Below are positions 1,976 to 25,348 of a stretch of 62,839 nt of DNA, one piece after another. Each line of letters starts with the position of its first letter. The first letter of the stretch is position 1. The notes under the pieces were generated by a model. It was not told the origin of the DNA. It worked only from the letters and a program-made list of their open reading frames with translations, and did not search any database. Source of the DNA: a virus (lineage: Duplodnaviria > Caudoviricetes). A program made the position numbers and the translations under genes. Location of the stretch: positions 1 through 62,839 of the IMG/VR virus record IMGVR_UViG_3300011335_000322; one strand, 5' to 3'.

Positions 1976-4575
1976 ATTGGCGCTTTCGGTGTTTTTGGTT
2001 GTTGCATGGACTGTGCCCTGCTCTTGGCAACATCAATACCCATCCTGACCCCAGATTCTTGTTGTTGCGCTGACAGTTTTGCTTTACTGTCCTGTATCTG
2101 CGCTCCAACTTTCAACCCGGCAAGCTGACTTTGCAATTGAGCTTTTTGTTGCTCCAGTTTGATCTTGTCAGCCTGTGTTGTTGCATCAACTAGTAATTTT
2201 TTCTCTTGCATAGCGGCTTGTTGGGCCATCTGCTGATTTTTAGCTTGTAGCTGCTGCATGGCAATCTGATTCTTCATTTGCGAATCCTGTGCTTGCTGCT
2301 GTGCTTGCTGCATAGCCTGCTGATTTCGCATCTGCAAATCTTGCTGTTTGATTTGCAACTCCTGCTGCTTGATCTGCAACTCCATTTGCTGCATTTGAAT
2401 CAACGGGTCTTGTTGATTTTGTTGTGCCTGCTGTTGCGCTGCCTGTGCTTGGTTTTGTTGCAAGACCTGTTGAGCCGCTTGAGCCAGCATCCCAGACAGA
2501 GCCGTTTCAACTTCGGGTGGCAGCTTCTCATCTTGCGGAGGCATGGGCATCCCTAGCTGCTGCTCAATTTGTTGTCGGTACTGGAACCCAACATGCTCTG
2601 CAAGGTGAGCCATCATGGCCCCTTGAATAAGAGGAGCCTTGGGGTTCTGACCAATTACTTGAGTTACAGACGGATCTTGCATCATGGCTTGATGCACTGC
2701 AATGTGCGATTTCTGATCTTGATAAGAGAACGCCTTGACCGGCTCCCCTTTGATAATCATCATGTTCTCAGTCACCGGGTCTAGCGGTTTCTGGTCATCT
2801 GGCAGGGGAACCAATTTATCTGCGTTCTTAATCCCCAAAACCTCCAGCATGTTGCGGTGCAACTGCGGCAAGTCATAGATATCAGGGGCCATCTGCGCCA
2901 TCTGAATCACAGCTTGGTACTGGACAACCCGTTGGCTCATGGTGGCTGCATTCGGGTCACTAACTGGAATCACATCCACATCGTCGTAGTCTTCCTTCTT
3001 GGCTTTCCTGTCCCCAATTTCAGGCTCATAGGTATAGTCAGGGTCGGTGTAGTCGGCGATGATCCGAGCCAGCAGCTTCAGTTCTTGTTTAAACGCAGCA
3101 TGAACCCTAGCCTGCACTGCGGTCATCACCTTGAGTTGGCGCTCCAGCAATGCCAGCGTTGTGCCGACCGGAGACTGACCTGACATGTCGCTGATCTTTA
3201 AATCTGCGGTGGCGGCAAACCTACGGCCTTCCTCAACAATATTCCCCAGCAGGGTGTAGAGAACTTGGCTTGGTTCCTTGTAAGGCAGCGGCAGGATGTT
3301 GTCCCGCATCACCCCAGAGCCAATGTCTACATCTCGCCATTCACCGGGGGCAATGGGGGTGTCATCTCCCTTGATTCGGAGTCCTCTGGTCTTGAGACCA
3401 CCCGGCAAGTTGGACAGTGTTCCTGCGTCCACAAGCTGTCGCATAATGCTGGTAGCCGACTTCGCAAACCCTCCGATGAGGTGGAAAAGGCCGAAGCCGT
3501 AAGCCCCAAAACCCGGAATGTATTGGTAGTGAACGAAGTGTTGTCGTTTAAGTCGGAGGTCGTCATCTTCTTCCCAGTTGCGGCGAATCGCCAAAACTTC
3601 TCCTGTGCCCTTGATTAGCGTCACGACATACGGTAGCATGATCCCGGTCTCTTCACCTTCTTTGTCGGTGTCTTCAAATCCCTTCAAATCAAGATCTGCA
3701 TGAATTTCATACAAGGTGAAACGGTCATCGTTTAAATCACTGAACCCGGTCTCTTTGTCCTTGGCTTTCTCAATGTCGGTGGTTTCTTTGGTCGGATCAC
3801 CAATGTCACATTCCCGATAAAATCCAGCGGATTGCAGTTTCAATATTTCATTTTTGGTCTTGTGCATCACATGGGTGACGCGATAGCAAGACTGAATATC
3901 TGATGCGCCATAGGGCAACAAGATATCTTCTGCTGGGATAAATATGGATATCTGCCTGCCAAGGCTGGGGTCGTAGTAGACCTTCTTGAATGCGGAGCCT
4001 GTAGCAGGTAGGCTCCACAGCATCCTCTCATGCTCTGCCCTGAACTCAACCATCTTCTCAGTCAGTTGATAGTTCATGTCTTCCTGAACCCTGACAGCCG
4101 ACTCTTTCTTCTCCTTAGTCTCTTTACCAATAATCTTGGTTTTTACTGGGCCAGCAGCCGGGAATGTCTCAGTGATTGTTTCGCTTTGGAACCTGACCAC
4201 TGCCTCTGTAATCATGGGGTGGAACACGCCACAAGCGCCGTTCCACGGCTCTGTGCGCTCTTCATACTGCAAACCCAACAGCTTCAAGCCCTCGGTGTAG
4301 GCTTTCTCCCAATCCTTGCGGCCTGCCTTGTCATTGTCTATTTCTGAGGTCAGATCAGAACTAAGGGTCTGCATGGCCCCCTCAGTCATTTCCTCTGCAA
4401 GATTTGCAGCAAAATCTTCTTCACCCATAGCATCTGGATCAATCTCAATCTCCATGCCATCTATACCAATCTTCATCGACTCCGGGTCAACAATCTCTAT
4501 CTCAATTGCCTCATCACCCATGTCATCCAAACCCATAGGGGCTTGGTACAACGATTTATCAATGTTGGTTGCCAT
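1972..4575 (-). CDS. Portal protein with Gln-rich C-terminal extension
   Basis: 867 aa directly after terL; podovirus portal-like segments (GSAFKKVYYD, FGAYGFGL, LSNLPGG) and long Q-rich coiled tail. Confidence 0.85.
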   Translation of the reverse strand: MATNIDKSLYQAPMGLDDMGDEAIEIEIVDPESMKIGIDGMEIEIDPDAMGEEDFAANLAEEMTEGAMQTLSSDLTSEIDNDKAGRKDWEKAYTEGLKLLGLQYEERTEPWNGACGVFHPMITEAVVRFQSETITETFPAAGPVKTKIIGKETKEKKESAVRVQEDMNYQLTEKMVEFRAEHERMLWSLPATGSAFKKVYYDPSLGRQISIFIPAEDILLPYGASDIQSCYRVTHVMHKTKNEILKLQSAGFYRECDIGDPTKETTDIEKAKDKETGFSDLNDDRFTLYEIHADLDLKGFEDTDKEGEETGIMLPYVVTLIKGTGEVLAIRRNWEEDDDLRLKRQHFVHYQYIPGFGAYGFGLFHLIGGFAKSATSIMRQLVDAGTLSNLPGGLKTRGLRIKGDDTPIAPGEWRDVDIGSGVMRDNILPLPYKEPSQVLYTLLGNIVEEGRRFAATADLKISDMSGQSPVGTTLALLERQLKVMTAVQARVHAAFKQELKLLARIIADYTDPDYTYEPEIGDRKAKKEDYDDVDVIPVSDPNAATMSQRVVQYQAVIQMAQMAPDIYDLPQLHRNMLEVLGIKNADKLVPLPDDQKPLDPVTENMMIIKGEPVKAFSYQDQKSHIAVHQAMMQDPSVTQVIGQNPKAPLIQGAMMAHLAEHVGFQYRQQIEQQLGMPMPPQDEKLPPEVETALSGMLAQAAQQVLQQNQAQAAQQQAQQNQQDPLIQMQQMELQIKQQELQIKQQDLQMRNQQAMQQAQQQAQDSQMKNQIAMQQLQAKNQQMAQQAAMQEKKLLVDATTQADKIKLEQQKAQLQSQLAGLKVGAQIQDSKAKLSAQQQESGVRMGIDVAKSRAQSMQQPKTPKAPI

Positions 4576-4584
4576 TCGGTATCC

Positions 4585-6129
4585 TTAATAGTATGCGGCC
4601 TGTCTGCCGCGCCTAAATATTCTAGGCTCTTCTTTCTCATCAGACTCCAACGAGATAAAACCCCCTTGGCGGTAGCGCAGCAGCGCTTGTGTGGTGGTGT
4701 CCACGTAGTCGTCGTGCTCTCCCACAGGAAACGCTGCCATTTCTTCTATGACTTCCCTAGCCCACCGGGTGTCTGGGGCCCACACTTTACCTGAAGTGAA
4801 CAGGTCGGCTACGGCGTTCATCCGCACCATTTTGTCGTTTCCCCGGCTGGGGGTGAACTCTTGCACAGGTATGCCCATTGCCCGGAGTTCTTGAATCAGA
4901 GGAGACCCTGCGGCTTTCTTTTCCACAATAATGCTATCAGGTTCCCAATCTTTCCAGTGTTTCAACGCCACAGCTTTCAGTTCCGGGAAGGCCATCCGGT
5001 CTTTAAACGCATCCAGCAGTATGAGTTGGGGAGAGCCGTTTTCTTCGTCGTTGTACCAAATCCCCCATGTCGTACACGCACTGTAGTCAGCGGTGGTCTT
5101 GGTCTCAAAGGCGGTGTCCCACGACTGTATGACGTACTCACATTTGGGCGCATCATCATGGGGCCAGACCCGCCAGTGTTTGCGGGAGACAACCGCCGAC
5201 ATGTCTGAGGTGGGCTGCTGCATGTACTGTGCGTTCCAGTACCGGGGTTCCAAACTGGCTTTGGTTGTCTCCAACAACTCTAGGGGCCACTGTTCAGGCC
5301 ACAAGGCTTTACCCGATGGTAGTATGGCGGGTAGCTCCACAACCTCCCACGGCATGGAGTCCGGGTTCTTGGTCTGGTAGTCAAGCAGCCGCCCGGTCAA
5401 GTCCAGTAATGACCAACGGGTCATTACCACGATAATGGCTCCCCCCGGCATCAGTCGTTGTAGCGGCCCGGTCTGGAACCATGACCATGCAGTATCAAAT
5501 GCCAAGCGGCTGTTGACCTTTATGTCTTGCTCCGAATGCGGGTCATCAATGACGAATAGGTCAGCGCCGCGCCCAGCAAGTGCACCGCCAACACCCGCTG
5601 CGTAGTACTGGCCCCCGGCTGTAGTTGACCATTTACCGGCGGCTTTTTGGTCACTGGCAACAAGGGTGCGGGGAAAGATTTCATGGTATTCCTCTGAGTC
5701 AATCAGGTTGCGTACTCGTCTGCCATAGTCTTCGGACAGGGACGCCGTGTGTGTCCCCATGATGATTTTCTTTTCTGGGTACTTGCCTAAAAAATAAGCA
5801 GGGAACAGATATGAGGAGAACTCAGACTTTCCATGCCGGGGGGCTATGTTGACGATCACCCTTTTCTTGTTGCCCTCAATCACATCCGTAAATATTTTTG
5901 CCAGCTTGCGGTGATGGGGGCCAATCTTAAATCCGGGGTACACACCTTGGGCAAACCCCAAGGGGCTGTGTTTGGCGGCAGTCAGTCTGGCGCGTTGCTC
6001 ACGAATACTTAGGTCATCAAACAGTTCAATCTTGTCCTGCAATGACATGGATGGCAAAGCGCGTTGCAGCGCTTCCAATTCCACTTTACTTAGGCTGGTC
6101 AGCGTCTGTAGGTTCATTAACTGGGACAT
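4585..6129 (-). CDS. terL: Terminase large subunit
   Basis: Walker A APRHGKS, Walker B-like LFVIDDPH, MTRW coupling motif, nuclease motifs QSWDTA and HDDYVD. Confidence 0.95.
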   Translation of the reverse strand: MSQLMNLQTLTSLSKVELEALQRALPSMSLQDKIELFDDLSIREQRARLTAAKHSPLGFAQGVYPGFKIGPHHRKLAKIFTDVIEGNKKRVIVNIAPRHGKSEFSSYLFPAYFLGKYPEKKIIMGTHTASLSEDYGRRVRNLIDSEEYHEIFPRTLVASDQKAAGKWSTTAGGQYYAAGVGGALAGRGADLFVIDDPHSEQDIKVNSRLAFDTAWSWFQTGPLQRLMPGGAIIVVMTRWSLLDLTGRLLDYQTKNPDSMPWEVVELPAILPSGKALWPEQWPLELLETTKASLEPRYWNAQYMQQPTSDMSAVVSRKHWRVWPHDDAPKCEYVIQSWDTAFETKTTADYSACTTWGIWYNDEENGSPQLILLDAFKDRMAFPELKAVALKHWKDWEPDSIIVEKKAAGSPLIQELRAMGIPVQEFTPSRGNDKMVRMNAVADLFTSGKVWAPDTRWAREVIEEMAAFPVGEHDDYVDTTTQALLRYRQGGFISLESDEKEEPRIFRRGRQAAYY

Positions 6130-6685
6130 CCACTACGTCAATCACATGCATAAACTTGTTCAGCTTTTCTTTGATGCGCTGCTCCAGTTCGCTATCGGAC
6201 ATGTCGGTTTTCTTAATCTCCACACGTTCCGTAAATAGCGCCACTTCAGTTACCTTGCCTAGCATCTCCAACGCTTTGAGTCGGAAGCGGGTGTCAGGGT
6301 TTTTAGTCTCTTCAAGTATTTGTGACACGGCGTAGCCGCGCAGTTCTTTGGCCTGCTCTACAAAAGCCCAATCATATGCGGTCAACATCCCTACCAGATG
6401 CCGCACCGCTTGGGGAGTCTTTATGTTGGTAAGCGCCAACTTTGTGTTTTGAGGTGGGGTTCCTGCAGCCATTGTGGCAAACGCTGCACGTACCGCCTGC
6501 GAGTCCGCAGCCGTTTCAATCTCTTCGTCTGGAATAGCGCCAAGCTGCTTCAACCAATCTGCCGTTTTAACTTTGGCGTCGATGATGTCCGCAACCGACT
6601 GATTGGCAATAGGGGTGACCGCACCCCCGGCGGGGATGTTTTCTATTTCGGGGTGGTATTCCCCGTTGATGAGGTGGTTAAACAT
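6086..6685 (-). CDS. Probable terminase small subunit
   Basis: 199 aa immediately upstream of terL; RLKALEMLGK helix and C-terminal SDSELEQRI. Confidence 0.6.
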   Translation of the reverse strand: MFNHLINGEYHPEIENIPAGGAVTPIANQSVADIIDAKVKTADWLKQLGAIPDEEIETAADSQAVRAAFATMAAGTPPQNTKLALTNIKTPQAVRHLVGMLTAYDWAFVEQAKELRGYAVSQILEETKNPDTRFRLKALEMLGKVTEVALFTERVEIKKTDMSDSELEQRIKEKLNKFMHVIDVVDVPVNEPTDADQPK

Positions 6686-6716
6686 GGGTAGTACGTAATA
6701 GTGTACACTTCTTTTT

Positions 6717-6790
6717 GAGTGGCGGTAGTTTCCGTTGCTTCTCCTTGATAGGCAATCCTATCTTTACCCCCCGCACTGGGGGGTTTTTTT
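6717..6790 (+). ncRNA. Candidate trans-acting anti-RBS small RNA
   Basis: -10 TACACT at 6704-6709; hairpins GAGTGGCGG/CCGTTGCTT, GATAGG/CCTATC and ACCCCCC/GGGGGGT plus T-tract; 6729-6748 is complementary to several phage translation initiation regions. Confidence 0.65.
6766..6790 (+). terminator. Rho-independent terminator
   Basis: ACCCCCC-GCACT-GGGGGGT followed by a T run. Confidence 0.85.
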
Positions 6791-6799
6791 ATGGTTGTT

Positions 6800-6839
6800 T
6801 GTCTAACATTAGACATAGTATGGGGTGAATTTTTATAAT
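6800..6839 (+). promoter_or_regulatory. Palindromic operator 1 overlapping a sigma70-like promoter
   Basis: TGTC-TAACATTA-GACA at 6800-6815; TAGACA (6810-6815), 18-bp spacer, TATAAT (6834-6839). Confidence 0.55.
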
Positions 6840-7081
6840 TTTTATGTGGGGTGGTGTTTTGTTTGGATGGGGGGTGGGTGGACGATTTGGGGGAAATGTG
6901 TAGTACGGGTATGGATTAGTGTTGTTGTATGAGCAGTGTTGCTTGGCCCTAAAGGGGGGCTGGGGGTACAGTGGGGTCTAAGATTACTGCATTTCTGACC
7001 TTCCCCAGAACCCCGTAATGTCATACTAGAAGTGTCAGTAGGGAGAACGCCCTGCTGGTATCGCCCATGTCGGGCTTGTCG

Positions 7082-7102
7082 AACGGGGGGCTTTCCCCCC
7101 AT
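7082..7102 (+). repeat. Early-region palindrome family A, copy 1
   Basis: AAC-GGGGGG-CTTT-CCCCCC-AT just before the AGGAG RBS of 7114. Confidence 0.85.
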
Positions 7103-7113
7103 TAGGAGTCAAT

Positions 7114-7497
7114 ATGTCTATCAAAGCTAATGTCACCAAGTTCATCAAGGGTACTACCGAACGCGCCGAAGCCGTTGTGGCACTCAAGGCTGCGTACAAG
7201 GGTAAGAGCAAGGCTGTGGTACGGGCAGCCCTCTTGTCCATTGTTGCAGCATGGCCTAAGTACAACGTGCCGGTCATACCCGGTGCAGGCAAGGCCAAAG
7301 GGGGGCTGGTGATGGATAGTAGTGCCAAGAACTATGAGACGGCGAGGTCGATGCTAGCAGACCTTGTGTCTGCCGTCGTTGACGGAAAGAAAACCTCGTT
7401 CAAGTACGAGTTCAGCCGCAAGCAGAAAGCTGCGGCCAAGGTGTATTTGGCATTGTTCGCCAATGCGGCCGAGGCCAAGGCTGCGCTGACTGCGTAA
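7114..7497 (+). CDS. Basic Ala/Lys-rich early protein
   Basis: 127 aa, AGGAG RBS, first gene of the plus-strand arm. Confidence 0.8.
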   Translation: MSIKANVTKFIKGTTERAEAVVALKAAYKGKSKAVVRAALLSIVAAWPKYNVPVIPGAGKAKGGLVMDSSAKNYETARSMLADLVSAVVDGKKTSFKYEFSRKQKAAAKVYLALFANAAEAKAALTA

Positions 7498-7553
7498 AGC
7501 AAACCCTGTAGCCCATACACGAGTGTGGGCTATGGAGTGTGTTTTCACACTAC

Positions 7554-7574
7554 AACGGGGGGAATTCCCCCCAT
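7554..7574 (+). repeat. Early-region palindrome family A, copy 2
   Basis: AAC-GGGGGG-AATT-CCCCCC-AT. Confidence 0.85.
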
Positions 7575-7598
7575 TGTCAACAAAACTTTGGAGTAATC

Positions 7599-7979
7599 AT
7601 GAAAACAAAAGTGACACCGGCAAAAATAGCAAAACTAATGGCGCACATGCGCCAAATCACCCCATCGGGGGTGGAGGTGAGAGAGGTATGTTGCGACCCA
7701 AAATACGGAGTCGGGTTGACCCTGGACTCCCCTGCAGGGGAACACTCGTCAGAGTTGGTGCGCTTTAGTTGCACACCCACGTCTGAAGAAGACGGTGATG
7801 TACCAGGGGGTTGGAACATCCATGCCACCCGTCAAAAAAACGGCCATTTTGTGGCCGCATGGGTGGCGGGTGGCGAGTCGCTAGAGGGCGATTATTACGC
7901 GTGCTGGCTGTCGGTAAGTGCAACCCGCAGCGGTTGCACTTACTGGCTACAACCCCTCGAAATCATAGAGGGGGAATGA
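7599..7979 (+). CDS. Hypothetical early protein
   Basis: GGAG RBS then ATG 7599 (MKTKVTPAK...). Confidence 0.7.
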   Translation: MKTKVTPAKIAKLMAHMRQITPSGVEVREVCCDPKYGVGLTLDSPAGEHSSELVRFSCTPTSEEDGDVPGGWNIHATRQKNGHFVAAWVAGGESLEGDYYACWLSVSATRSGCTYWLQPLEIIEGE

Positions 7980-7980
7980 G

Positions 7981-8001
7981 AACGGGGGGAACTCCCCCCA
8001 T
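7981..8001 (+). repeat. Early-region palindrome family A, copy 3
   Basis: AAC-GGGGGG-AACT-CCCCCC-AT. Confidence 0.85.
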
Positions 8002-8050
8002 GATTGGGTTAGTTGCGTGCCCTCTCACGCAGCGTAGTTAGGAGATATCA

Positions 8051-8110
8051 ATGAACATGGTTTTAGCAAGTATCGGCACGGCTTGCGCGGCTGCTGCCTT
8101 CTGGGACTAA
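8051..8110 (+). CDS. Possible 19-aa peptide MNMVLASIGTACAAAAFWD
   Basis: Strong AGGAGA RBS with normal spacing; very short. Confidence 0.35.
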   Translation: MNMVLASIGTACAAAAFWD

Positions 8111-8153
8111 GCACTCTATAGCCCTGTGACAGGGGGCTATGTAGTGCGCTGTT

Positions 8154-8177
8154 AGAGGGAGAACTGTTCTCCCCCTG
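8154..8177. repeat. Palindrome family B, copy 1
   Basis: AGAGGGAGAAC-T-GTTCTCCCCCTG; its reverse complement matches 9523-9546 at 23 of 24 nt. Confidence 0.8.
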
Positions 8178-8198
8178 AGTGTCACTGAGGAGTTAATC

Positions 8199-8429
8199 AT
8201 GAAAACCACCATCATGGGTGTCGAGTACACCATCATCCGCAAGCAGCCTTTGCGTAACGACCCATCGTACTGGGTCATCCATGCCGTGAGCATGGACGGC
8301 AGAACCACCGCCCACAGTAGCACCGAGGCTTTCCTCGGGTGGGCAGAGCGTGAGGGCATGGCCCAACGCTCGGAGCGCAGGCCAAACGGGGTCATGCGTG
8401 CCGCACTTTTGAGTGCAGGTTTGCAGTAA
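8199..8429 (+). CDS. Hypothetical early protein
   Basis: 76 aa, GAGGAG RBS. Confidence 0.7.
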   Translation: MKTTIMGVEYTIIRKQPLRNDPSYWVIHAVSMDGRTTAHSSTEAFLGWAEREGMAQRSERRPNGVMRAALLSAGLQ

Positions 8430-8439
8430 TCTCGCCCGA

Positions 8440-8790
8440 GGGGGGTGGCCCACCTTTTTCCTGCAATGTCCCAGACTAATGGGCGCTGTACAGGAAGTGG
8501 GCCACCCCTAAGTTGTTGTTCCATAAGCGTTTCCAGCAGGGGGTGTCCTATATATATAATTAAATAGATTTACTTTATATATACAGTAATCTCCTTTTAT
8601 CCATTCGTTCTTTCTTTTGCGTTTGGTTTAAGTTAAGATTACAAGGGCTTTGGTTTATTTATTTTTGAGTGTATACTTGGGTCAGGAACCACGCGAACCC
8701 TTGTGCCACAAGGGTTTGAGGGTAGCCCACCTCTTGTCCTAGCACCTGTAGTCTGGGACATCGTTAGACATTTACTGGGCCACCCCCCAC
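8440..8790. other. Candidate replication origin / non-coding control region
   Basis: AT-rich core (TATATATATAATTAAATAG...TATATATA) inside 13-bp inverted repeats ATGTCCCAGACTA (8466-8478) and TAGTCTGGGACAT (8749-8761); GGGCCACCCC-type repeats; 21-bp palindrome at about 8696-8717. Confidence 0.45.
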
Positions 8791-8805
8791 CCAAAAGGAG
8801 CCGAT

Positions 8806-9588
8806 ATGGTTGAATCTTACGCAGCGCTGACGCCAAAAGCGTTAGCAAACCACCTTGCCAAGCGCAAGGTTCCGCTTGTTATGGTGCAAGCCATACAAGA
8901 GCGTGCTGCCCAGCAGCGTGCGTTCAAGCGTTCCGATACGGGAACAAAGCGAACGCATAAGGAACTGTGGGGCAACCTGTTGTTCCCCCTGCGCTACGAG
9001 CGCAACAATGTGAAGTCAGGCCTGAAGTACGCAGGCGATGGCGCAAGGGGTGAGGCAATGCACAGTTATCTCATTGTGTTGGAGGAATTGCTCCATCGGC
9101 TGAACATGCACGCCACAGCCCGTATCCTGACCCCGCGCCAACTGTGCAAGGAGCGCAACGAGTCTGGCCGGGGCGCACACATACCCAATGCAGGAACCCA
9201 TTGGTCTGATTGGATTCCGCAGCATATCAAACTGAGGGTGTGTGTCCTGTTTGACGCTATACCCTATAAACAGCGTGCGAAACGCAAGCTACCTTTCCAG
9301 CGTGCCATACCCCCGCTGCTGTACAGCAGGCTGTACGCAGCCCTTGGCTTACGGACACAGGGGTTCCTGAGCGCGGCACAGCGCAAGCATGCCGTTGCGC
9401 CCACAGAAGAGACAGAAGCTACTGTTGCAGCCATACAACAAGCGCTGGCTGTCCTGAGAGAGTGGCCCCGCAACACAGCCCTGCCCTACGCATGGCAGAG
9501 CCTTGTAGCGACCAGTATCAAACAGGGGGAGAACGGTTCTCCCTCTGCTGAAAGCGGACGACCTCTGCTGAAAGCGGACGACCGCTAA
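8806..9588 (+). CDS. Hypothetical basic protein
   Basis: 260 aa, AAGGAG RBS; 3' end runs through palindrome B and a 20-bp tandem duplication. Confidence 0.75.
   Translation: MVESYAALTPKALANHLAKRKVPLVMVQAIQERAAQQRAFKRSDTGTKRTHKELWGNLLFPLRYERNNVKSGLKYAGDGARGEAMHSYLIVLEELLHRLNMHATARILTPRQLCKERNESGRGAHIPNAGTHWSDWIPQHIKLRVCVLFDAIPYKQRAKRKLPFQRAIPPLLYSRLYAALGLRTQGFLSAAQRKHAVAPTEETEATVAAIQQALAVLREWPRNTALPYAWQSLVATSIKQGENGSPSAESGRPLLKADDR
9523..9546. repeat. Palindrome family B, copy 2 (inverted relative to copy 1)
   Basis: CAGGGGGAGAAC-G-GTTCTCCCTCT. Confidence 0.8.
9542..9583 (+). repeat. 20-bp tandem duplication
   Basis: CCTCTGCTGAAAGCGGACGA twice. Confidence 0.9.
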
Positions 9589-9589
9589 C

Positions 9590-9610
9590 AACGGGGGGGA
9601 AACCCCCCAT
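9590..9610 (+). repeat. Early-region palindrome family A, copy 4
   Basis: AAC-GGGGGG-GAAA-CCCCCC-AT before the AGGAG RBS of 9627. Confidence 0.85.
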
Positions 9611-9626
9611 AACCTAGGAGAGTGAC

Positions 9627-9971
9627 ATGGGACTAGACATTCAGATATTGAGCGTACCTCGGGCAATGGCCTTGAGAGCCACCGATGTGCGGCTTGGCTC
9701 ACGCTACGACAAAAACCCCCGATGGCAGCAAGTGGCCTACGAGCGCAACAACTGGGACTTGCATGCCTTGCTTGCTGCACTCTATGCCGAGCGAGGCGGG
9801 GCACAGGACGAGTTCAACGACACAACTGTGCGCCTGTACAAGCGCGACCTACAACTGTTCCTTCAGACTTTTGAAGGAACTGTGCCTCCTGCCATTAGCC
9901 CATCCACGGCAGCGCAGGTTATCGAACACATGCAAAAAGGGCGAGTTGTGTACGCCGAAGTTAGTTTTTAA
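9627..9971 (+). CDS. Hypothetical phage protein
   Basis: 114 aa starting MGLD, AGGAG RBS. Confidence 0.75.
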   Translation: MGLDIQILSVPRAMALRATDVRLGSRYDKNPRWQQVAYERNNWDLHALLAALYAERGGAQDEFNDTTVRLYKRDLQLFLQTFEGTVPPAISPSTAAQVIEHMQKGRVVYAEVSF

Positions 9972-9984
9972 AAGGAGAAGTGAC

Positions 9985-10191
9985 ATGAAGACAGTATCAA
10001 TTGGCGTATTCAACAAAGAGGATGTGTTCACAGTGGTGTGCACCCTGAACAACAACGATGGACTCGTGCCCCCTGCTGCGTTCGAAGCCATCGTTGAGAA
10101 CACAGCGCTGGCCTTGGCTGTGCATCTGGGACAACGGGAGACGTTTGTCATGGAGCGCCAAGACGCCCCGGACTGCGTAGACGTAGAGTAA
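9985..10191 (+). CDS. Hypothetical protein
   Basis: AAGGAG RBS then ATG 9985 (MKTVSIGVFNKE...). Confidence 0.7.
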   Translation: MKTVSIGVFNKEDVFTVVCTLNNNDGLVPPAAFEAIVENTALALAVHLGQRETFVMERQDAPDCVDVE

Positions 10192-10244
10192 GCATCCGTT
10201 GCCGGTACGGTTTACCGGTGTGTTAGTTATATCAAGGAAACAAA

Positions 10245-11849
10245 ATGAAAATCTACTTAAGTGATTGTGGAAGCGTGCTCAAGGCACAGATTGCGGACGC
10301 CAGCACGCTGGTGCAGGTCACGGGTACGCTGGACGAGGGCTACAGGGAACTGCGGCAATACCTGCCAGAGCCCACGTTCTCCACCCCTGCGTTCACATTA
10401 GAGCAGACCAGCATGCTGAAGAGACGCAGCCCCGATGTGTACGGGCAGTTACTCAACAACATGGTCGATTCGCTCTCAGCGTTCGCAGCACGGCGCATGC
10501 GTGGGCTCTGCCGCCGTTGGGCAGACAGGGAAAACGACCGCTCCCCCACAGCGCACTGTCGCGGGGGCTACTACCAATTGCACGGCAGCGGGGTCCGCCG
10601 GTTCAGGGCAATGAAGGAGATGTGTCGTGAACTCAACGTGCATGTCAAAGCGGCCATCCAAGGTGATGCGTATGAGCTAGTCGAGTTCATCATGGAGAAC
10701 GATGGGAACGACCTGATAGAACGGGTGTTCCCCAAGATAAGCCAGTTCGTTGCCGACCGCTTGGTCTTGGCAGACTGTGGTCACATCACCCGGCCCGATG
10801 ACATGAGAGATGTACACCGCACCTCAAGGAGCATAAGCACGATGTGCGAGCACTGCCGTGGCGAAAATGCGGTGTACTGCGAGGATGCAGAGGCGTACTA
10901 CTTAGAGTCTCGTGCCTACCTCCACAGCGATGACAATTGGTATACGTACGAAGAAGAGCGGGAGGAGGAGGAGGAGACTGCACACAATGGGCACTCCATG
11001 AGCTACTCCGCAGATGTCTTGCGGCATGCCGCTGCCGATGGGAGCATCCACAGTTCCAAGTATGGGGACTTCACGATGGGCATTGAGTTGGAGATGGCCC
11101 CGGGGCGTGCGTCTAGGTACGATGCCATTGAGGATGTGCGGAACCAGCTTGGGCATGACTACTGCATCATCAAGGACGATGGCAGCATCAGCGGGGTGAA
11201 TGGCTTTGAGGTAGTGACTGCACCCCGTGGTCTGAAGGAGCACATCACCCGCTTCAAAGCATGGGATGTTAACAAGTCATATCGGGCTTGGGATGTGGAG
11301 AAGTGCGGCACGCATGTGCACATCGACTCCCGTGCCTTCACTGAGTTGACTCTGGGCAAGTTCATCATGTTCATCAACTCCAACAACAACGCCGACTTCA
11401 TCCGCAATATAGCAGGCAGGCATCCGCTCAAGGACAGCCAAGCACGGGAGTACTGTGCCAATGAGGAGCAGGGCATCTTGGAGAACCCCAAGCAGGCCAT
11501 CCTCGGCAAGACGGCACAGCGCTACTACATGGTGAACCTGAACAACTTGGCTCATGACGAGTCCCGGCGCTTAGGGTTCAAGAGTACGTACACAGAGGGC
11601 AAGTACAACACGATAGAGCTTCGCATCTTCCGCGCCACACTCAAGAAGGAGCGCTTGCTTGCACAGATAGAGTTCACCCATGCCAGTGTGCACTTCTGTC
11701 GCAGTGCGAGTTTCCGCGAACTCAATGGCACAGAGTTCGTGTCATGGCTCAAGACGACCAACAACGCATACCCACACCTGTCCGATTGGTACGGCACACG
11801 CCGCCCCAAGCAGGCTCCTCAATCTCCCGCACTCGCAACAACTGAATAA
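10245..11849 (+). CDS. Putative amidoligase (COOH-NH2 ligase, glutamine synthetase-like fold)
   Basis: GIELE, DGSI, GFEVVTAP, CGTHVHI, RYYMVNL and TIELRIF motifs; N-terminal Cys/His-rich region. Confidence 0.8.
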   Translation: MKIYLSDCGSVLKAQIADASTLVQVTGTLDEGYRELRQYLPEPTFSTPAFTLEQTSMLKRRSPDVYGQLLNNMVDSLSAFAARRMRGLCRRWADRENDRSPTAHCRGGYYQLHGSGVRRFRAMKEMCRELNVHVKAAIQGDAYELVEFIMENDGNDLIERVFPKISQFVADRLVLADCGHITRPDDMRDVHRTSRSISTMCEHCRGENAVYCEDAEAYYLESRAYLHSDDNWYTYEEEREEEEETAHNGHSMSYSADVLRHAAADGSIHSSKYGDFTMGIELEMAPGRASRYDAIEDVRNQLGHDYCIIKDDGSISGVNGFEVVTAPRGLKEHITRFKAWDVNKSYRAWDVEKCGTHVHIDSRAFTELTLGKFIMFINSNNNADFIRNIAGRHPLKDSQAREYCANEEQGILENPKQAILGKTAQRYYMVNLNNLAHDESRRLGFKSTYTEGKYNTIELRIFRATLKKERLLAQIEFTHASVHFCRSASFRELNGTEFVSWLKTTNNAYPHLSDWYGTRRPKQAPQSPALATTE

Positions 11850-12982: not shown

Positions 12983-13008
12983 AAACATCTAACTATTTTG
13001 GAGAAGCA

Positions 13009-13491
13009 ATGAGTACCAATAAAGCACCGTGGACTGAGGTTCTTAAACAGTGGGAACCCACCCCCACTACAACGGTAACACCACCCGTTTTCCCAGTGAC
13101 GAACAACGTCACTCGTGAGACGTTTGAGTGTGTCAAGAAGAACCCCGGGATAACAGCGCCGCAAGTCGTGGCGATGCTGCCCCAACAAAAAGCCAACTCG
13201 GTGAAGTCCCTCTTGACGCAGATGGTCAAGAACGGGCTGTGCCGCAAGCAAGGCTTCGGGTTCTACGCCCTTGTTGACGAGTACCTGCCGTTGAAAAGAG
13301 CGTATGCCAAATACGCAGCGGTAAAGAAGGTCAAGGCAAAGCCCCCTGCCCTTGCCCCCGCCCCCTCAATGGAGCAACAACTCGCCCCAGCAAGGGAGCA
13401 ACGACTTGCTACGGCAAGCAACCTACTGATGTCCCTCAACGTGGTTGAGGCGCGTCTTTTGTACGATGAACTCAAGAAAGTTTTTAACTAA
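13009..13491 (+). CDS. Putative winged-helix DNA-binding protein
   Basis: KKNPGITAPQVVAML...SVKSLLTQMVKNGLC pattern; GGAGAAGCAATG start region. Confidence 0.55.
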   Translation: MSTNKAPWTEVLKQWEPTPTTTVTPPVFPVTNNVTRETFECVKKNPGITAPQVVAMLPQQKANSVKSLLTQMVKNGLCRKQGFGFYALVDEYLPLKRAYAKYAAVKKVKAKPPALAPAPSMEQQLAPAREQRLATASNLLMSLNVVEARLLYDELKKVFN

Positions 13492-14462: not shown

Positions 14463-14499
14463 TTAACCGGGGGCTTCGGCCCCCACAACAGGAGAAGCA

Positions 14500-14694
14500 A
14501 TGATTACATTTATAAAGAACTATTTCCGCAGACCCACGCCGCTGGAAATGATCGCCAAGGAATTGGCTGTCGCACACTTGTGCAAGCTAGAAGCTGAGAC
14601 GGCAGTTGACTATGCCGTGAGTGTCGTGCGCTACAACGACACACGCATCAAACGGTTAGAGCAACACATCAACAACCACAAGGAGCAGGTATGA
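14500..14694 (+). CDS. Small hypothetical protein, first of the coupled ORF chain
   Basis: 64 aa; AGGAGAAGCAATG start region. Confidence 0.75.
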   Translation: MITFIKNYFRRPTPLEMIAKELAVAHLCKLEAETAVDYAVSVVRYNDTRIKRLEQHINNHKEQV

Positions 14695-16121: not shown

Positions 16122-16279
16122 AATACGAAGACATAAAAGACTTCTATCAACGCTGTGACGAACACCCCGAACATCAAAGCGGGATAATTAGTAACTCAAT
16201 GATTCAACAGCGGTTACACGAAGAGATTGACGAACTGCGTGAGTACATTGAAGCCAAACTCAAGGAGAAGAATACATGA
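16118..16279 (+). CDS. Cassette ORF (53 aa) ending IEAKLKEKNT
   Basis: Below ORF-track cutoff; MKYEDIKDFYQRCDEH...; ATGA overlaps at both ends. Confidence 0.75.
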   Translation: MKYEDIKDFYQRCDEHPEHQSGIISNSMIQQRLHEEIDELREYIEAKLKEKNT

Positions 16280-23294: not shown

Positions 23295-23306
23295 CACGGA
23301 GAAGCA

Positions 23307-24887
23307 ATGGAAATCATAGAAAACAAAGCACTGTTACTGCGAACTCGTGACCCCGGTAAATACGGCATCATCCCCAAGAGTCGAGTCGTTGAGCAGCACG
23401 AAGACGGGTCGGCATCTGTAGCAGTTTACTGGGGGCTGGAAGAAGCAAAGGTGCTTAGAAACTTGGGTGTCAAAGATGTACCCTCGCCCATAACCAAGCG
23501 CTATCACTGGCCCGGACGTTACATACCGATGGCGCACCAGATTGAGACAGCGGGGTTCCTAACCCTGAACCGCAAGGCGTTCTGTTTTAGTGAGCCGGGT
23601 ACGGGCAAGACCTTGAGTGCGCTGTGGGCCGCAGACTACTTGATGTCACAGGGCGTGGTGCGAAGGTGTCTGATACTGTGCCCCCTGTCCATCATGCACA
23701 GCGCGTGGTTGTCGGACATGACCAGTAGCATCATCCACCGTTCTGCCATCGTCGCCCACCATGCTCAAGCTAGTCGGCGCATTGAGATGGTGCAGCAGAA
23801 CTACGAGTTCGTCATTACCAACTACGATGGGTTGAACCTGATTGCGGACGAAGTGCGTAACGATGGGCGGTTTGATTTGGTGATTGCGGATGAGGCCAAC
23901 GCCTACAAGATGCCCACTACCAAAAGGTGGAAGTCGTTGCAGAAAGTCATCACACCCAACACATACCTGTGGATGATGACCGGCACACCCGCTGCACAGT
24001 CTCCCGTGGATGCATACGGGCTTGCCAAGTTCGTTAACCCCAACGGCGTGCCGAAGTTCTACACAGCATGGCGGGATCAGGTGATGAACAAAATCACGAT
24101 GTTCAAGTGGGCTCCCAAAGCAGATGCGCCTGAGACCGTGTTTGCTGCCTTGCAGCCTGCGATACGCTTCACCAAAGCACAGTGCCTTGACCTACCACCG
24201 GTCATCACAATGGTGCGCGAAGTGCCGCTGACCCCACAGCAAAACAAGTACTACGTGATGCTCAAAGAGCAGATGCTGGTGCAAGCGGCAGGGGAGACCA
24301 TCACGGCTGTGAACGCTGCTGCGGGTGTGAGCAAGCTGTTGCAGATCAGTTGTGGGGCTGCGTACACAGACACAAAGGAAGTGGTGGAGTTTGACTCCTC
24401 CCCACGCCTTGCTGTGCTGGAGGAAATACTAGGAGAGACACAGCGCAAGGTCATCATCTTTGCCTTGTTTCGTAGCACCATCTCAGCGATACACGCACAC
24501 CTGTTGAAGCACCACATAGCAACGGAAATGATCCACGGCGACATACCCCCCATCAAACGGGGAGACATCATCAGGCGCTTTCAAAACGAGCCTGAACCAA
24601 GGGTGTTGGTGATGCAACCGGCAGCGTCCGCACACGGCATCACACTGACCGCTGCGGACACGGTGGTGTTCTACGGCCCCCTGATGTCTGTGGAGCAGTA
24701 CACCCAGTGCATCGCCAGAGCAGACCGCAAGGGGCAGGACTCAGACAAAGTTACGGTGGTGCACATTCAGGGATCGCCAATAGAAAGACGCATGTTTAAA
24801 GCCCTTGGAGAAAAAGTGAGCGACCACTCTCTACTAACCAAGCTGTTCGACATTGAAATTAAAACAGGAAAGGGGTTGCAAATGTAA
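23307..24887 (+). CDS. SNF2-family helicase
   Basis: EPGTGKT, DEAN, MTGTP, HGITLT, QCIARADRKGQ. Confidence 0.9.
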   Translation: MEIIENKALLLRTRDPGKYGIIPKSRVVEQHEDGSASVAVYWGLEEAKVLRNLGVKDVPSPITKRYHWPGRYIPMAHQIETAGFLTLNRKAFCFSEPGTGKTLSALWAADYLMSQGVVRRCLILCPLSIMHSAWLSDMTSSIIHRSAIVAHHAQASRRIEMVQQNYEFVITNYDGLNLIADEVRNDGRFDLVIADEANAYKMPTTKRWKSLQKVITPNTYLWMMTGTPAAQSPVDAYGLAKFVNPNGVPKFYTAWRDQVMNKITMFKWAPKADAPETVFAALQPAIRFTKAQCLDLPPVITMVREVPLTPQQNKYYVMLKEQMLVQAAGETITAVNAAAGVSKLLQISCGAAYTDTKEVVEFDSSPRLAVLEEILGETQRKVIIFALFRSTISAIHAHLLKHHIATEMIHGDIPPIKRGDIIRRFQNEPEPRVLVMQPAASAHGITLTAADTVVFYGPLMSVEQYTQCIARADRKGQDSDKVTVVHIQGSPIERRMFKALGEKVSDHSLLTKLFDIEIKTGKGLQM

Positions 24888-24918: not shown

Positions 24919-24937
24919 AAACTACATGGAGAAGCAA

Positions 24938-25348
24938 ATGGAAACAGAAGTGATTGAGGTGCTGCCGCTTGATCGGCTTGCCAAAATCTACCGCAAGATG
25001 CGTTCCGCAATTGAGGTCTTGACGAAAGAGTATGACACTCAAGTCGAAGCCATCAAGGAGCAGCAGGAGGGCGTGAAGAACGCCATGAAAGACCAGATGA
25101 AGGCGCTGGGCGTCACATCTGTGAAAACAGCAGAGGGCACGGTCATACTCTCCGTGAAGACCCGCTACAACACGCAGGATTGGGACTCGTTCAAACGATT
25201 CATCATCGAGAACGAAGCCGTTGACTTGCTGGAGAAGCGGATCGCACAGAGCAACATGGCGCAATTCTTGACAGAAAACCCCGGACTCGTACCTCCGGGA
25301 CTCAACTCATCGTCTGAGTATGACGTAAGCGTACGCAAACCAACTTAA
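24938..25348 (+). CDS. Replication-module protein of unknown function
   Basis: Coiled N-terminus, DWDSF..FI, LLEKRI, PPGLN; start chosen at ATG after the GGAG SD. Confidence 0.75.
   Translation: METEVIEVLPLDRLAKIYRKMRSAIEVLTKEYDTQVEAIKEQQEGVKNAMKDQMKALGVTSVKTAEGTVILSVKTRYNTQDWDSFKRFIIENEAVDLLEKRIAQSNMAQFLTENPGLVPPGLNSSSEYDVSVRKPT

What the first reader, a model, noticed from the sequence alone, without database searches (positions are those of the whole stretch)
6717..6790. Candidate phage small RNA antisense to an extended RBS signature shared by several phage genes
Seen: a self-contained non-coding unit at the late/early divergence, with -10 TACACT (6704-6709), three hairpins starting at G6717 and a clean terminator. 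Its segment 6729-6748 (TTTCCGTTGCTTCTCCTTGA) has the reverse complement TCAAGGAGAAGCAACGGAAA. The 10-mer GGAGAAGCAA occurs at four start codons: 13000-13011 (wHTH gene), 14491-14502 (head of the 17-ORF chain), 23298-23313 (SNF2 helicase; GGAGAAGCAATGGAAA pairs over 16 nt with one G-U, covering SD and AUG) and 24928-24945 (pairs through GGAAAC with one bulge). 9972-9984 (AAGGAGAAGTGAC) pairs with two wobbles, and TCAAGGAGAAG matches 11/11 in the cassette junctions at 16260, 16706 and 18221. The CUCCUU anti-SD part lies unpaired between hairpins 1 and 2, and the rest sits in a wobble-rich stem, which suits a toehold. Inference: one sRNA translationally silences an address-tagged set of middle/replication genes, as an early-to-late switch, dormancy control or superinfection exclusion. 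GGAG alone is expected at any SD; the AAGCAA(TGGAAA) extension is not.
Basis: partly seen in the sequence, partly recalled or inferred. Interest (0 to 1): 0.9.

Follow-up and report, generated by a model that had tools for sequence, protein, structure and literature searches.

The report
Conserved phage small RNA with anti-RBS seed
A roughly 74-base structured RNA gene sits between the packaging genes and the early promoter of an uncultured freshwater phage, and its never-changing exposed stretch mirrors the ribosome-binding site of the phage's own helicase and a few other early genes, so it most likely switches their translation off.

Summary
The sRNA reading is strongly supported by comparison with relatives. 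Its function is still inferred.

**The RNA gene**
- Window 6717-6790 (+) folds into hairpin 1, unpaired CUCCUU, hairpin 2 and an intrinsic terminator.
- The unit lies upstream of TerS in 78 of 80 related IMG/VR loci.
- It occurs in 48 distinct sequence variants that all keep this architecture.
- On a model-fitted alignment, 96.1% of cells pair against 85.1% shuffled, and 12 of 23 pairs show double changes.
- The sense strand folds better than the antisense strand in 47 of 48 variants.
- TTGCTTCTCCTTG is invariant.
- An invariant ANTNTANANT motif sits 6-7 nt upstream. It reads as two overlapping, divergent -10 boxes, one for the sRNA and one for TerS.

**The targets**
- The complement GGAGAAGCAA occurs 18 more times in six genomes, always at early/middle gene starts.
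- It is kept, or changed only to wobble-compatible forms, at the helicase start in 61 of 78 loci and at the next gene in 64 of 80. Two control genes show 0 of 49 and 0 of 77.
- With unfolding costs included, the window's four tagged starts are the best four of 70.

**Limits**
No transcript or repression was shown. There is no Rfam membership.

The parts
6700..6709 (.). 10-bp palindrome AGTGTACACT. It reads as two overlapping, divergent -10-like hexamers: TACACT at 6704-6709 on '+' for the sRNA, and TACACT at 6705-6700 on '-' towards TerS.
   Evidence: Sequence. In 48 variants the invariant columns are exactly A.T.TA.A.T. 46 of 47 further unique members carry ANTNTANANT, with 6 nt to the RNA model start in 42 of those 46. 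The function as a promoter is inferred.
6717..6790 (+). Candidate small RNA gene (about 74 nt).
   Evidence: Fold -30.9 kcal/mol, z -4.3. A covariance model built only from other-clade relatives hits 6717-6791 (+) at 43.5 bits, E 1.2e-8. There is one copy per genome in 6 of 6 genomes.
6717..6740 (+). Hairpin 1: 9 bp with 4 G-U pairs. Its 3' arm, CCGUUGCUU, is part of the target-complementary stretch.
   Evidence: In helix 1, 95.4% of cells pair; 6 pairs vary on one side and 2 pairs vary on both sides. The wobble pairs make the helix strand-specific.
6735..6747 (+). Invariant 13-mer TTGCTTCTCCTTG (the seed). CUCCUU at 6741-6746 is unpaired.
   Evidence: Invariant in 48 of 48 distinct variants. 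Unpaired in the single-sequence folds.
6747..6762 (+). Hairpin 2 (GAUAGG/CCUAUC).
   Evidence: 5 of its 6 pairs show changes on both sides among relatives, and 98.1% of cells pair.
6766..6790 (+). Intrinsic terminator: stem 6766-6784, then a U-tract.
   Evidence: A GC-rich stem plus T-run is present in all 48 variants, always on this strand. 5 of its 8 pairs covary.
6086..6685 (-). TerS-like first gene of the late/packaging block. It is divergent from the sRNA and has no SD before its ATG.
   Evidence: PHROG 51, weak (E 5.7e-4), followed by TerL (E 1.8e-98) and portal. The N-terminus and ATG are conserved in relatives.
6800..6839 (+). Early promoter TAGACA-18-TATAAT (6810-6839), with a perfect inverted repeat TGTCTAACATTAGACA (6800-6815) over its -35. 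It lies directly downstream of the sRNA terminator.
   Evidence: The same arrangement is seen in relatives.
23298..23313 (+). Predicted target: helicase translation start GGAGAAGCAAUGGAAA.
   Evidence: Best of 70 starts in cofolding (-18.5 kcal/mol net). The motif is conserved in 52 of 78 loci exactly and in 61 of 78 counting wobble-compatible forms.
24928..24945 (+). Predicted target: start of the 136-aa gene after the helicase (PHROG 13900).
   Evidence: Second best of 70 (-17.7). 32 of 80 loci exact and 64 of 80 wobble-compatible.
14491..14502 (+). Predicted target: start of a 64-aa gene.
   Evidence: Third of 70 (-13.7). Also present in G001.
13000..13011 (+). Predicted target: start of a 160-aa gene.
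   Evidence: Fourth of 70 (-13.0). Also present in G001.
9972..9984 (+). Weaker candidate target AAGGAGAAGUGAC (two wobbles).
   Evidence: The corresponding start in G001 scored -18.4, second of 74.
16260..16270 (+). Weaker candidate target TCAAGGAGAAG. The same 11-mer is at 16706 and 18221, in a repeated gene-junction cassette.
   Evidence: Cofold gave only -7.7 to -8.1 for the starts at 16722 and 18237; the start at 16276, which follows this copy, was not among the 14 printed.

Best explanation
Window 6717-6790 (+) is a gene for a small, structured, non-coding RNA of a family that has no Rfam model. I estimate the existence of this RNA at about 0.9.

**How it is made (inferred).** It is probably transcribed from a -10-type promoter (TACACT, 6704-6709). 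That hexamer overlaps, back to back, the -10 of the divergent late/packaging (TerS) promoter. Transcription ends at the intrinsic terminator at 6766-6790.

**How it works (inferred, about 0.55).** The RNA acts in trans.
1. Its invariant stretch UUGCUUCUCCUUG is an extended anti-Shine-Dalgarno sequence. It nucleates on the SD of phage mRNAs through the unpaired CUCCUU.
2. Pairing then zips into the wobble-rich hairpin 1.
3. This covers the SD, the spacer and the AUG of starts carrying GGAGAAGCAA(UG): the helicase, the 136-aa gene after it, the genes at 13009 and 14500, and more weakly other (UC)AAGGAGAA starts.
4. The 30S subunit can no longer bind, so translation of this early/middle (replication) gene set falls.

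**Shown:** sequence, fold, conservation, covariation, strand specificity, motif enrichment and motif conservation.

**Inferred:** the promoter and 5' end, expression itself, pairing in vivo, the direction of the effect (repression), its timing, and any chaperone.
For: **Structure and conservation**
- The three-hairpin fold has z -4.3.
- The element lies upstream of TerS in 78 of 80 loci. The two without it have only 74 nt of upstream sequence.
- 48 distinct variants of 93-139 nt all fold as hairpin 1, single strand, hairpin 2, terminator. Their length differences are not multiples of three.
- The sense strand is more stable than the antisense strand in 47 of 48 variants (mean -34.8 against -26.7 kcal/mol).
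- A model built from 23 type-A sequences finds exactly one hit in each of 48 sources, including the window.
- It finds one hit in each of 6 genomes.
- It finds 55 hits in 76 further loci that were retrieved by a pattern scan.
- Pair counts: 96.1% paired against 85.1% shuffled (0 of 500 shuffles reach it). 94 cells show double changes against 19.9 expected (0 of 500). Slid controls pair 34-60%. 12 of 23 pairs change on both sides.
- The 13-mer is invariant in 48 of 48 variants.

**Promoter**
- The -10 motif ANTNTANANT is invariant.
- It is present in 46 of 47 further members, at a fixed distance.

**Targets**
- The 10-mer has 5 copies against 0.15 expected.
- All 18 copies away from the sRNA locus, across six genomes, are at gene starts on the early/middle strand. 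The reversed-pattern control gives 0-1 per genome.
- AAGCAA is the commonest 6-mer after GGAG: 18 of 309 candidate starts, with the next commonest at 6.
- The motif GGAGAAG-Y-A-R is kept at the helicase in 61 of 78 loci and at the next gene in 64 of 80. Two control genes in the same loci show 0 of 49 and 0 of 77.
- 43 of 67 changed cells still pair with the seed.
- With unfolding costs included, the four tagged starts are ranks 1-4 of 70 in the window (-18.5, -17.7, -13.7, -13.0; mean -4.4, sd 4.0).
- In the five relatives, tagged starts rank 1st and 3rd of 74 (G001), 1st and 2nd of 72 (G002), 1st, 5th and 6th of 58 (G003), 7th of 75 (G004), and 1st, 5th and 6th of 46 (G005).
Against: - No transcript evidence exists. 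RNA runs held only small shares, as contigs of relatives.
- No -35 was found, and the consensus scan did not call the promoter.
- The seed core is simply anti-SD, so any strong SD pairs with it. In relatives, untagged (C)AAGGAGAA starts score as well as tagged ones, and the G004 helicase start ranks only 7th of 75.
- A plain duplex scan of both strands did not separate gene starts from other sites.
- There is no general co-variation of the seed flanks with targets. Type-A sRNAs match the helicase start over only 12 nt, and the AUGGAAA extension is specific to one clade.
- 17 of 78 helicase loci and 16 of 80 next-gene loci lack even the wobble-compatible motif.
- The same RBS occurs as an ordinary RBS in unrelated phage contigs.
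- Counts across relatives are not phylogenetically independent.
- Alignment A3 was fitted to the model's structure, so pair counts lean towards it.
- Gene calls are crude.
Confidence: 0.55

Rival explanations
1. The RNA is real, but its main targets are host mRNAs, or strong SDs in general. It would then be a phage tool for host shut-off or global retuning of translation. The matches to the phage's own starts would be a by-product of those genes using a strong, common RBS.
For: - The seed core is a generic anti-SD.
- Many untagged (C)AAGGAGAA starts score well.
- The same RBS 13-mer occurs at gene starts of unrelated phages.
- Sub-threshold Rfam similarity is to bacterial CU-rich sRNAs: anti-hemB at 23.1 bits and PsrR1 at 19.3 bits.
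Against: - The invariant stretch extends 6-7 nt beyond the anti-SD. That extension (AAGCAA) is the commonest spacer at the phage's own starts.
- The extension is conserved at orthologous phage genes but not at control genes.
- The host is unknown, so no host target could be examined.
Confidence: 0.15
2. The conserved sequence works on the TerS strand or as DNA. It could be a strong RBS plus a short upstream ORF that feeds ribosomes to the SD-less TerS. It could also be a late promoter or operator, or a packaging signal. On this reading the plus-strand fold is incidental.
For: - In most relatives the motif is followed by ATG and a short ORF that ends near or over the TerS ATG.
- TerS has no SD in any clade.
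- The palindrome and the A-rich block next to it are highly conserved.
Against: - The ATG is absent in the window clade (ACG) and in others (ACA, ACT). The ORF's frame and length (14 to 46 aa) and its peptide are not conserved.
- The G-U-rich helices form only on the plus strand: sense beats antisense in 47 of 48 variants.
- Hairpin 2 and the terminator covary.
- The T-tract lies on the plus strand in all variants.
- No TerS-strand promoter was found upstream of the motif. The TerS-strand -10 lies downstream of it, so the motif would not be in the late mRNA.
Confidence: 0.07
3. The unit is mainly a transcriptional insulator. A short transcript and its terminator would keep RNA polymerase that leaves the late-promoter region from running into the early promoter, and would set up promoter competition. 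The RNA itself would have no trans function.
For: - The terminator sits 10-20 nt before the operator and -35 of the strong early promoter in the window and in relatives.
- The two -10 boxes overlap, so polymerase binding in the two directions should be mutually exclusive (this consequence is inferred).
Against: - An insulator needs only a terminator. It does not explain an invariant, unpaired 13-mer between two covarying hairpins.
- It also does not explain why that 13-mer matches conserved starts elsewhere in the genome.
Confidence: 0.08
4. The RNA acts in another way through the same stretch. It might bind or titrate a protein such as Hfq, ribosomal protein S1 or a phage factor. Or it might activate its targets instead of repressing them.
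For: - The pyrimidine-rich single strand, a U-rich linker before the terminator and the U-tail resemble chaperone-binding modules (resemblance recalled, not tested).
- Nothing here measures the direction of any effect.
Against: - Pairing would cover both the SD and the AUG, which is the classical geometry of repression.
- The target starts show no strong inhibitory structure that pairing would open in the folds.
Confidence: 0.1

Closest known systems
c4 antisense RNA of phages P1 and P7
   Same: A phage-encoded small RNA that acts in trans on the phage's own mRNA. It pairs around a ribosome-binding site and blocks translation, and its function depends on secondary structure that presents the complementary stretch. 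Source: passages of the review PMC12197685.
   Different: - c4 serves immunity in temperate phages and controls one antirepressor operon.
- Here no tyrosine integrase was found, and no prophage copy in one scan of 185,579 species genomes.
- The RNA here is a separate unit beside the late promoter.
- Its complement is shared by several unlinked genes.
- No sequence or model similarity to c4 was tested beyond Rfam, which gave no family at gathering score.
T4 RegA translational repressor
   Same: One phage-made factor competes with the ribosome at the translation initiation regions of many early and middle mRNAs, replication genes among them. This is layered on the transcriptional switch to late genes. 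Source: passages of PMC3014915.
   Different: RegA is a 122-aa protein that recognises loose A+U-rich sites. Here the proposed factor is an RNA that recognises an exact extended SD by base pairing. This is an analogy of function only.
Bacterial CU-rich 'anti-SD' sRNAs: Rfam anti-hemB (RF02837), PsrR1 (RF02701), Betaproteobacteria toxic sRNA (RF02278)
   Same: A small RNA with a UCUCCU-type stretch followed by an intrinsic terminator. These were the best sub-threshold Rfam matches, and the aligned consensus shows the same CU-rich stretch.
   Different: - Scores of 23.1, 19.3 and 16.2 bits fall far below the gathering scores of 49.5, 42 and 50.
- Those RNAs are chromosomal, not phage-encoded.
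- The helices are different.
Cis-antisense phage RNAs such as lambda OOP and P22 sar (recalled, not looked up here)
   Same: A short, terminator-ended phage RNA of about 70 nt that is made near a regulatory junction.
   Different: Those RNAs overlap their target gene on the opposite strand. Here the inferred RNA starts 32 nt beyond the TerS ATG and runs away from it, so it overlaps no gene.

Membership tests
Trans-encoded base-pairing sRNA that occludes ribosome-binding sites | Own transcription unit ending in an intrinsic terminator | tested here: met
   A GC stem plus T-run lies on the plus strand in the window and in all 48 variants. The stem covaries.
Trans-encoded base-pairing sRNA that occludes ribosome-binding sites | Own promoter and a defined 5' end | tested here: inconclusive
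   An invariant TAnAnT lies at a fixed 6-7 nt before the structured part. However, there is no -35, the consensus scan made no call, and there are no 5'-end data.
Trans-encoded base-pairing sRNA that occludes ribosome-binding sites | Conserved secondary structure supported by covariation | tested here: met
   96.1% paired, 12 of 23 pairs with double changes, 0 of 500 shuffles reach the score; the same architecture in 48 of 48 variants.
Trans-encoded base-pairing sRNA that occludes ribosome-binding sites | Conserved accessible seed complementary to the translation starts of genes encoded elsewhere | tested here: met
   The 13-mer is invariant and CUCCUU is unpaired. The complement lies at 18 of 18 non-locus sites at gene starts. 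The tagged starts are the top four of 70 in cofolding.
Trans-encoded base-pairing sRNA that occludes ribosome-binding sites | The RNA is made, and target translation falls when it is present | not testable with these tools
   RNA runs gave only contigs of relatives with small shares. No reporter or infection data exist.
Rfam families anti-hemB, PsrR1 and Betaproteobacteria toxic sRNA | Score at or above the family's gathering threshold | tested here: not met
   0 families reached gathering score over the whole window. The best sub-threshold scores were 23.1 (threshold 49.5), 19.3 (42) and 16.2 (50) bits.
Cis-antisense RNA to the late (TerS) mRNA | The RNA overlaps the target transcript on the opposite strand | tested here: not met
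   The TerS ATG is at 6685 and the RNA begins near 6717 and runs away from it. No minus-strand promoter was found upstream of 6790. This rests on inferred transcript ends.
Upstream ORF or leader peptide for TerS | Conserved start codon, reading frame and peptide | tested here: not met
   The start position reads ACG in the window clade and ACA or ACT in others. The frames differ over the conserved block, and lengths are 14, 20, 23 and 46 aa.
c4-type immunity RNA of temperate phages | Temperate life style, with the RNA embedded in the immunity operon that it controls | tested here: not met
   There is no PF00589 integrase. One scan for the commonest form of the motif in species genomes found one short, binned phage-like scaffold and no integrated copy. 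The RNA is a separate unit. Other integrase types were not searched.

The most novel reading that the evidence does not exclude
This is an RNA counterpart of T4 RegA in a widespread group of uncultured, apparently virulent freshwater phages. On this reading:
- One small RNA defines a translational regulon by an exact, extended Shine-Dalgarno 'address' shared by the helicase and other early/middle genes.
- The RNA is fired from a promoter whose -10 box physically overlaps, back to back, the -10 box of the late packaging operon.
- The choice of direction at a single 10-bp palindrome would therefore couple late-gene transcription to the silencing of replication-gene translation.
Probability: 0.3. 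Interest if true: 0.78.

Novelty: new member of a known kind. Interest (0 to 1): 0.62.

Why it matters
Few small RNAs of virulent phages have a proposed function, and almost none comes from uncultured environmental phages.

Here comparative data alone give several things at once:
- a well-delimited RNA gene;
- its structure and its seed;
- a short list of conserved candidate targets, which are replication and recombination genes;
- an unusual promoter arrangement.

The family is large. There are 312 TerS relatives and 432 helicase relatives in IMG/VR, and more than 100 distinct RNA copies were seen.

If the mechanism holds, it would show that phages can schedule gene classes by tagging ribosome-binding sites for an RNA repressor. 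It would also supply a compact natural part, an RBS tag plus a 74-nt RNA, that can be tested in E. coli without the unknown host.

Tried and rejected
**Searches that found nothing**
- blastn of 6400-7400 against 50,697 phage records gave no match.
- Relatives of the first early protein (7114-7497) were not found.
- The covariance model found nothing in about 9-kb loci of phage DSL-LC04 and phage 023Pt_psg01. Only the region around TerL was examined, not the whole genomes.

**Expression**
- One search for RNA runs returned four runs, holding 0.05-0.09 of the sampled words.
- Laid on 3000-11000, they were contigs of relatives, mostly over the portal and terminase genes, with next to no cover at 6717-6790.
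- Contigs cannot show ends or strand, so this says nothing either way.

**Alignment and pairing methods**
- RNAalifold on the plain MAFFT alignment recovered only 10 pairs, because hairpin 2 and the terminator were misaligned by indels. I replaced it with single-sequence folds and a model-based alignment.
- A plain duplex scan of both strands gave the helicase and next-gene starts ranks in the top five of about 31,000 windows in the window and in G001.
- In that scan non-start sites scored alike, and type-A genomes did not rank the helicase start in the top 12. It was rejected as a discriminating test and replaced by cofolding with unfolding costs.

**Readings considered and rejected**
- A plus-strand small protein: the length differences among variants are not multiples of three.
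- tRNA or tmRNA: none found.
- A TerS leader peptide, and a cis-antisense RNA: see the membership tests.
- A packaging site as the sole explanation: the conserved signal is strand-specific RNA pairing.

**Life style**
- No PF00589 integrase was found.
- One scan of species genomes found one phage-like 4.9-kb scaffold in a MAG. It also found four copies of an unrelated repeat in another MAG.

**Literature**
- Three searches listed no paper that describes this RNA.
- I read passages of PMC12197685 and PMC3014915. All other papers were seen only as search listings.
Table S1 of PMC12197685 lists 38 phage sRNAs without a function; I could not see it, and it may bear on novelty.

Full report
**Setting.** The window is a whole IMG/VR virus record of 62,839 bases, linear, with estimated completeness 98%.
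- Minus-strand genes run from 6685 down to 1: a TerS-like gene at 6086-6685, TerL at 4585-6129 and portal at 1972-4575.
- Further minus-strand genes run from 62839 down to 29931, ending in a 3214-aa ORF.
- Plus-strand genes run from 7114 to 29808. Pfam or PHROG matches there include an amidoligase, DUF932, a family A DNA polymerase, a PD-(D/E)XK nuclease, a helicase and a DUF927 protein.
- The finding lies in the divergent gap between TerS and the first plus-strand gene.
- The nearest cultured phages by TerL are at about 50% identity: Pelagibacter phages HTVC027P and HTVC023P, phage DSL-LC04 and Planktothrix phages. There is no DNA-level match.

- All quoted strings and coordinates are correct.
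- 6717-6790 (+) folds into hairpin 1 (6717-6740, 9 bp with 4 G-U pairs), unpaired CUCCUU (6741-6746), hairpin 2 (6747-6762) and a terminator (stem 6766-6784, then U-tract). The energy is -30.9 kcal/mol, z -4.3, with 0 of 200 shuffles as stable.
- GGAGAAGCAA occurs 5 times against 0.15 expected, and 0 of 100 shuffles reach 5. Four copies are on '+' directly before an ATG. The fifth is on '-' inside the element.
- The window has no tRNA and no Rfam family at gathering score.

**Relatives.** The TerS protein has 312 confirmed relatives among 321 candidate stretches in IMG/VR, and the best 80 loci were kept.
- The 10-mer lies upstream of TerS in 78 of the 80. The two without it have only 74 nt of upstream sequence.
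- Trimmed from the -10 region to the T-run, the element exists in 48 distinct variants of 93-139 nt.
- TTGCTTCTCCTTG is identical in all 48. The hairpins differ in sequence and length, and hairpin 1 carries apical insertions of up to about 45 nt.
- Folded one by one, all 48 give hairpin 1, a single strand with UCUCCUU, hairpin 2 and a terminator.
- The reverse complement is less stable in 47 of 48 (mean -26.7 against -34.8 kcal/mol). The helices are rich in G-U pairs, which become A-C mismatches on the other strand.

**Covariation.**
- I built a covariance model from 23 sequences of the commonest type, none from the window's clade.
- It found exactly one hit in each of 48 sources.
- On the resulting alignment 96.1% of 1031 cells pair, against 85.1% after shuffling (0 of 500 shuffles reach it).
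- 12 of 23 pairs change on both sides.
- 94 cells carry a double change against 19.9 expected (0 of 500).
- Sliding the partners by 1-3 columns gives 34-60% paired.
- This alignment was fitted to the model, which favours the structure. The independent single-sequence folds agree with it.
- In hairpin 1 the 3' arm belongs to the invariant stretch. The 5' arm varies only by C/U and A/G exchanges that keep pairing.

**Size of the family.**
- I passed 76 new loci to the model, and 55 matched at E 0.01 or better.
- The other 21 look unrelated. Several are the antisense of ordinary gene starts in other phages.
- Each of six genomes, the window and G001-G005, has exactly one copy.

**Promoter.** In the 48 variants the invariant columns just upstream are A.T.TA.A.T.
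- That is the pattern expected if two TAnAnT hexamers, one on each strand, overlap by their TA.
- In the window this is the palindrome AGTGTACACT at 6700-6709.
- Variants such as AGTATATACT, AGTATACAAT and AGTGTATAGT change only the free positions.
- 46 of 47 further unique members carry the motif. In 42 of those 46 there are 6 nt between the motif and the model start.
- This fits a start site at about G6717 for the small RNA, and a divergent start a few bases before the TerS ATG.
- That would make the window clade's TerS mRNA almost leaderless, which agrees with TerS having no SD in any clade.
- All of this is inference. The sigma-70 scan found no -35 and made no call here.
- The scan did call a strong early promoter, TAGACA-18-TATAAT at 6810-6839, just after the terminator. 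Its -35 is overlapped by a perfect inverted repeat at 6800-6815. Relatives show the same layout.

**Is the conserved stretch an RBS for the other strand?** In most relatives the TerS-strand reading is TCAAGGAGAAGCAATG followed by a short ORF.
- The ATG is ACG in the window clade and ACA or ACT in others.
- The ORFs have different frames across the same conserved DNA block.
- They encode unrelated peptides of 14, 20, 23 or 46 residues.
- The TerS-strand -10 lies downstream of the motif, and no promoter was found upstream of it.
- I therefore rate this reading low.
- The ACG and ACA forms still pair with a target AUG through G-U wobble. That fits selection on the plus-strand RNA.

**Targets.**
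- In five related genomes the 10-mer occurs 1-4 times away from the RNA gene. The reversed pattern occurs 0-1 times.
- Together with the window, all 18 such copies lie at gene starts on the early/middle strand: 17 before ATG and one before TTG.
- Among 309 GGAG-led candidate starts in the six genomes, AAGCAA is the commonest following 6-mer, at 18 against 6 for the next.
- The helicase start carries the tag in five of the six genomes, and so does the gene after it.
- I then fetched helicase loci: 432 relatives were confirmed and the best 80 kept. 78 helicase starts and 80 next-gene starts could be read.
- The helicase start has the exact 10-mer in 52 of 78 loci and GGAGAAG[CT]A[AG] in 61.
- The next gene has the exact 10-mer in 32 of 80 loci and the wobble-compatible form in 64.
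- The nuclease gene before the helicase and the 319-aa gene after the pair have it in 0 of 49 and 0 of 77 loci. Their SD regions vary freely.
- Of 67 changed cells within the 10-mer, counted over unique sequences of both genes, 43 still pair with the invariant seed.
- These counts are not phylogenetically independent. A transition bias would push them in the same direction.

**Energetics.**
- A simple duplex scan was not discriminating.
- I then cofolded the whole 74-nt RNA with -35 to +25 of each of 70 crudely called starts and subtracted both monomer energies.
- The four tagged starts came out as ranks 1-4: -18.5, -17.7, -13.7 and -13.0 kcal/mol. The next was -9.9, the mean -4.4 and the sd 4.0.
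- In these duplexes hairpin 1 opens, while hairpin 2 and the terminator stay folded.
- In the five relatives, each folded with its own RNA, tagged starts are also near the top. Other (C)AAGGAGAA starts score as well, and the G004 helicase start is only 7th of 75.
- The predicted regulon is therefore 'strong early/middle SDs, best of all the tagged ones', not a sharply bounded set.
- The longer AUGGAAA pairing seen in the window is peculiar to its clade.

**What it is most like.**
- Mechanistically it resembles a classical base-pairing sRNA that occludes a ribosome-binding site.
- The closest phage example is c4 RNA of P1 and P7 (passages of PMC12197685).
- The closest in logic is the T4 RegA protein, which competes with ribosomes at about 30 early and middle starts (passages of PMC3014915).
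- Sub-threshold Rfam matches to anti-hemB, PsrR1 and the betaproteobacterial toxic sRNA share only the CU-rich stretch and a terminator.
- It is a member of none of these families.
- No tyrosine integrase was found.
- One scan of species genomes found no integrated copy. The group therefore looks virulent, but that is weak evidence.

**What is missing.**
- There is no evidence of expression, no 5' end, no host and no test of repression.

**Verdict.**
- The existence of a conserved small RNA gene is very likely, at about 0.9.
- Trans repression of the tagged early/middle starts is the best-supported mechanism, at about 0.55.
- The biological purpose is open.
- It is a new family of a known kind of regulator, with an unusual promoter arrangement.
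- Interest is 0.62.

Noticed in passing
window 6800-6839: The strong early promoter TAGACA-18-TATAAT has its -35 inside a perfect 16-bp inverted repeat, TGTCTAACATTAGACA, which looks like an operator. Relatives have TGTCCAACGTTTGACA at the same place. A similar TGTCCAACCCTTGACA lies at 24903-24918, just before the tagged start of the 136-aa gene, and at the same place in relatives.
   Followed up: partly
window 6846-6900: Runs of G (GGGGTGG..., GGGGGGTGGGTGG, GGGGG) follow the early promoter directly. GGGGGGTGGGG follows the -10 in most relatives too, so early transcripts would start with a G-rich, possibly quadruplex-forming leader.
   Followed up: no
window 8668-8677: A second copy of the palindromic double -10-like motif (AGTGTATACT) lies in the other divergent gap, between the minus-strand gene 8063-8524 and the plus-strand gene 8806-9588. 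ANTNTANANT has only 4 copies in the window, against 8.75 expected.
   Followed up: partly
L018, L031, L038, L057 and others, about 20-45 nt upstream of the TerS ATG: In most relatives outside the window's clade, the TerS leader holds a small hairpin with compensatory changes (GTGC..GCAC, GTAC..GTAC, GCAC..GTGC), preceded by GAGG about 30 nt before the SD-less ATG.
   Followed up: no
window 16247-16278, 16693-16724, 18208-18239 (and 17880-17907, which has one change): A repeated gene-junction cassette, ATTGAAGCCAAACTCAAGGAGAAGAAYACATG, suggests a run of paralogous small genes that share a C-terminal end overlapping the next gene's RBS.
   Followed up: no
window 29931-39575 (-): A single 3214-aa ORF ends the late block. 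It was not examined.
   Followed up: no
L313-L316 (one MAG, two large contigs): Four near-identical copies of an unrelated repeat hold the same 13-mer as the antisense of a gene start. It is probably a mobile element and is not related to the phage RNA.
   Followed up: partly
L221, just after the terminator: In one GC-rich family member, the sequence after the RNA's terminator looks like part of a tRNA gene on the other strand. It was not checked with a tRNA finder.
   Followed up: no
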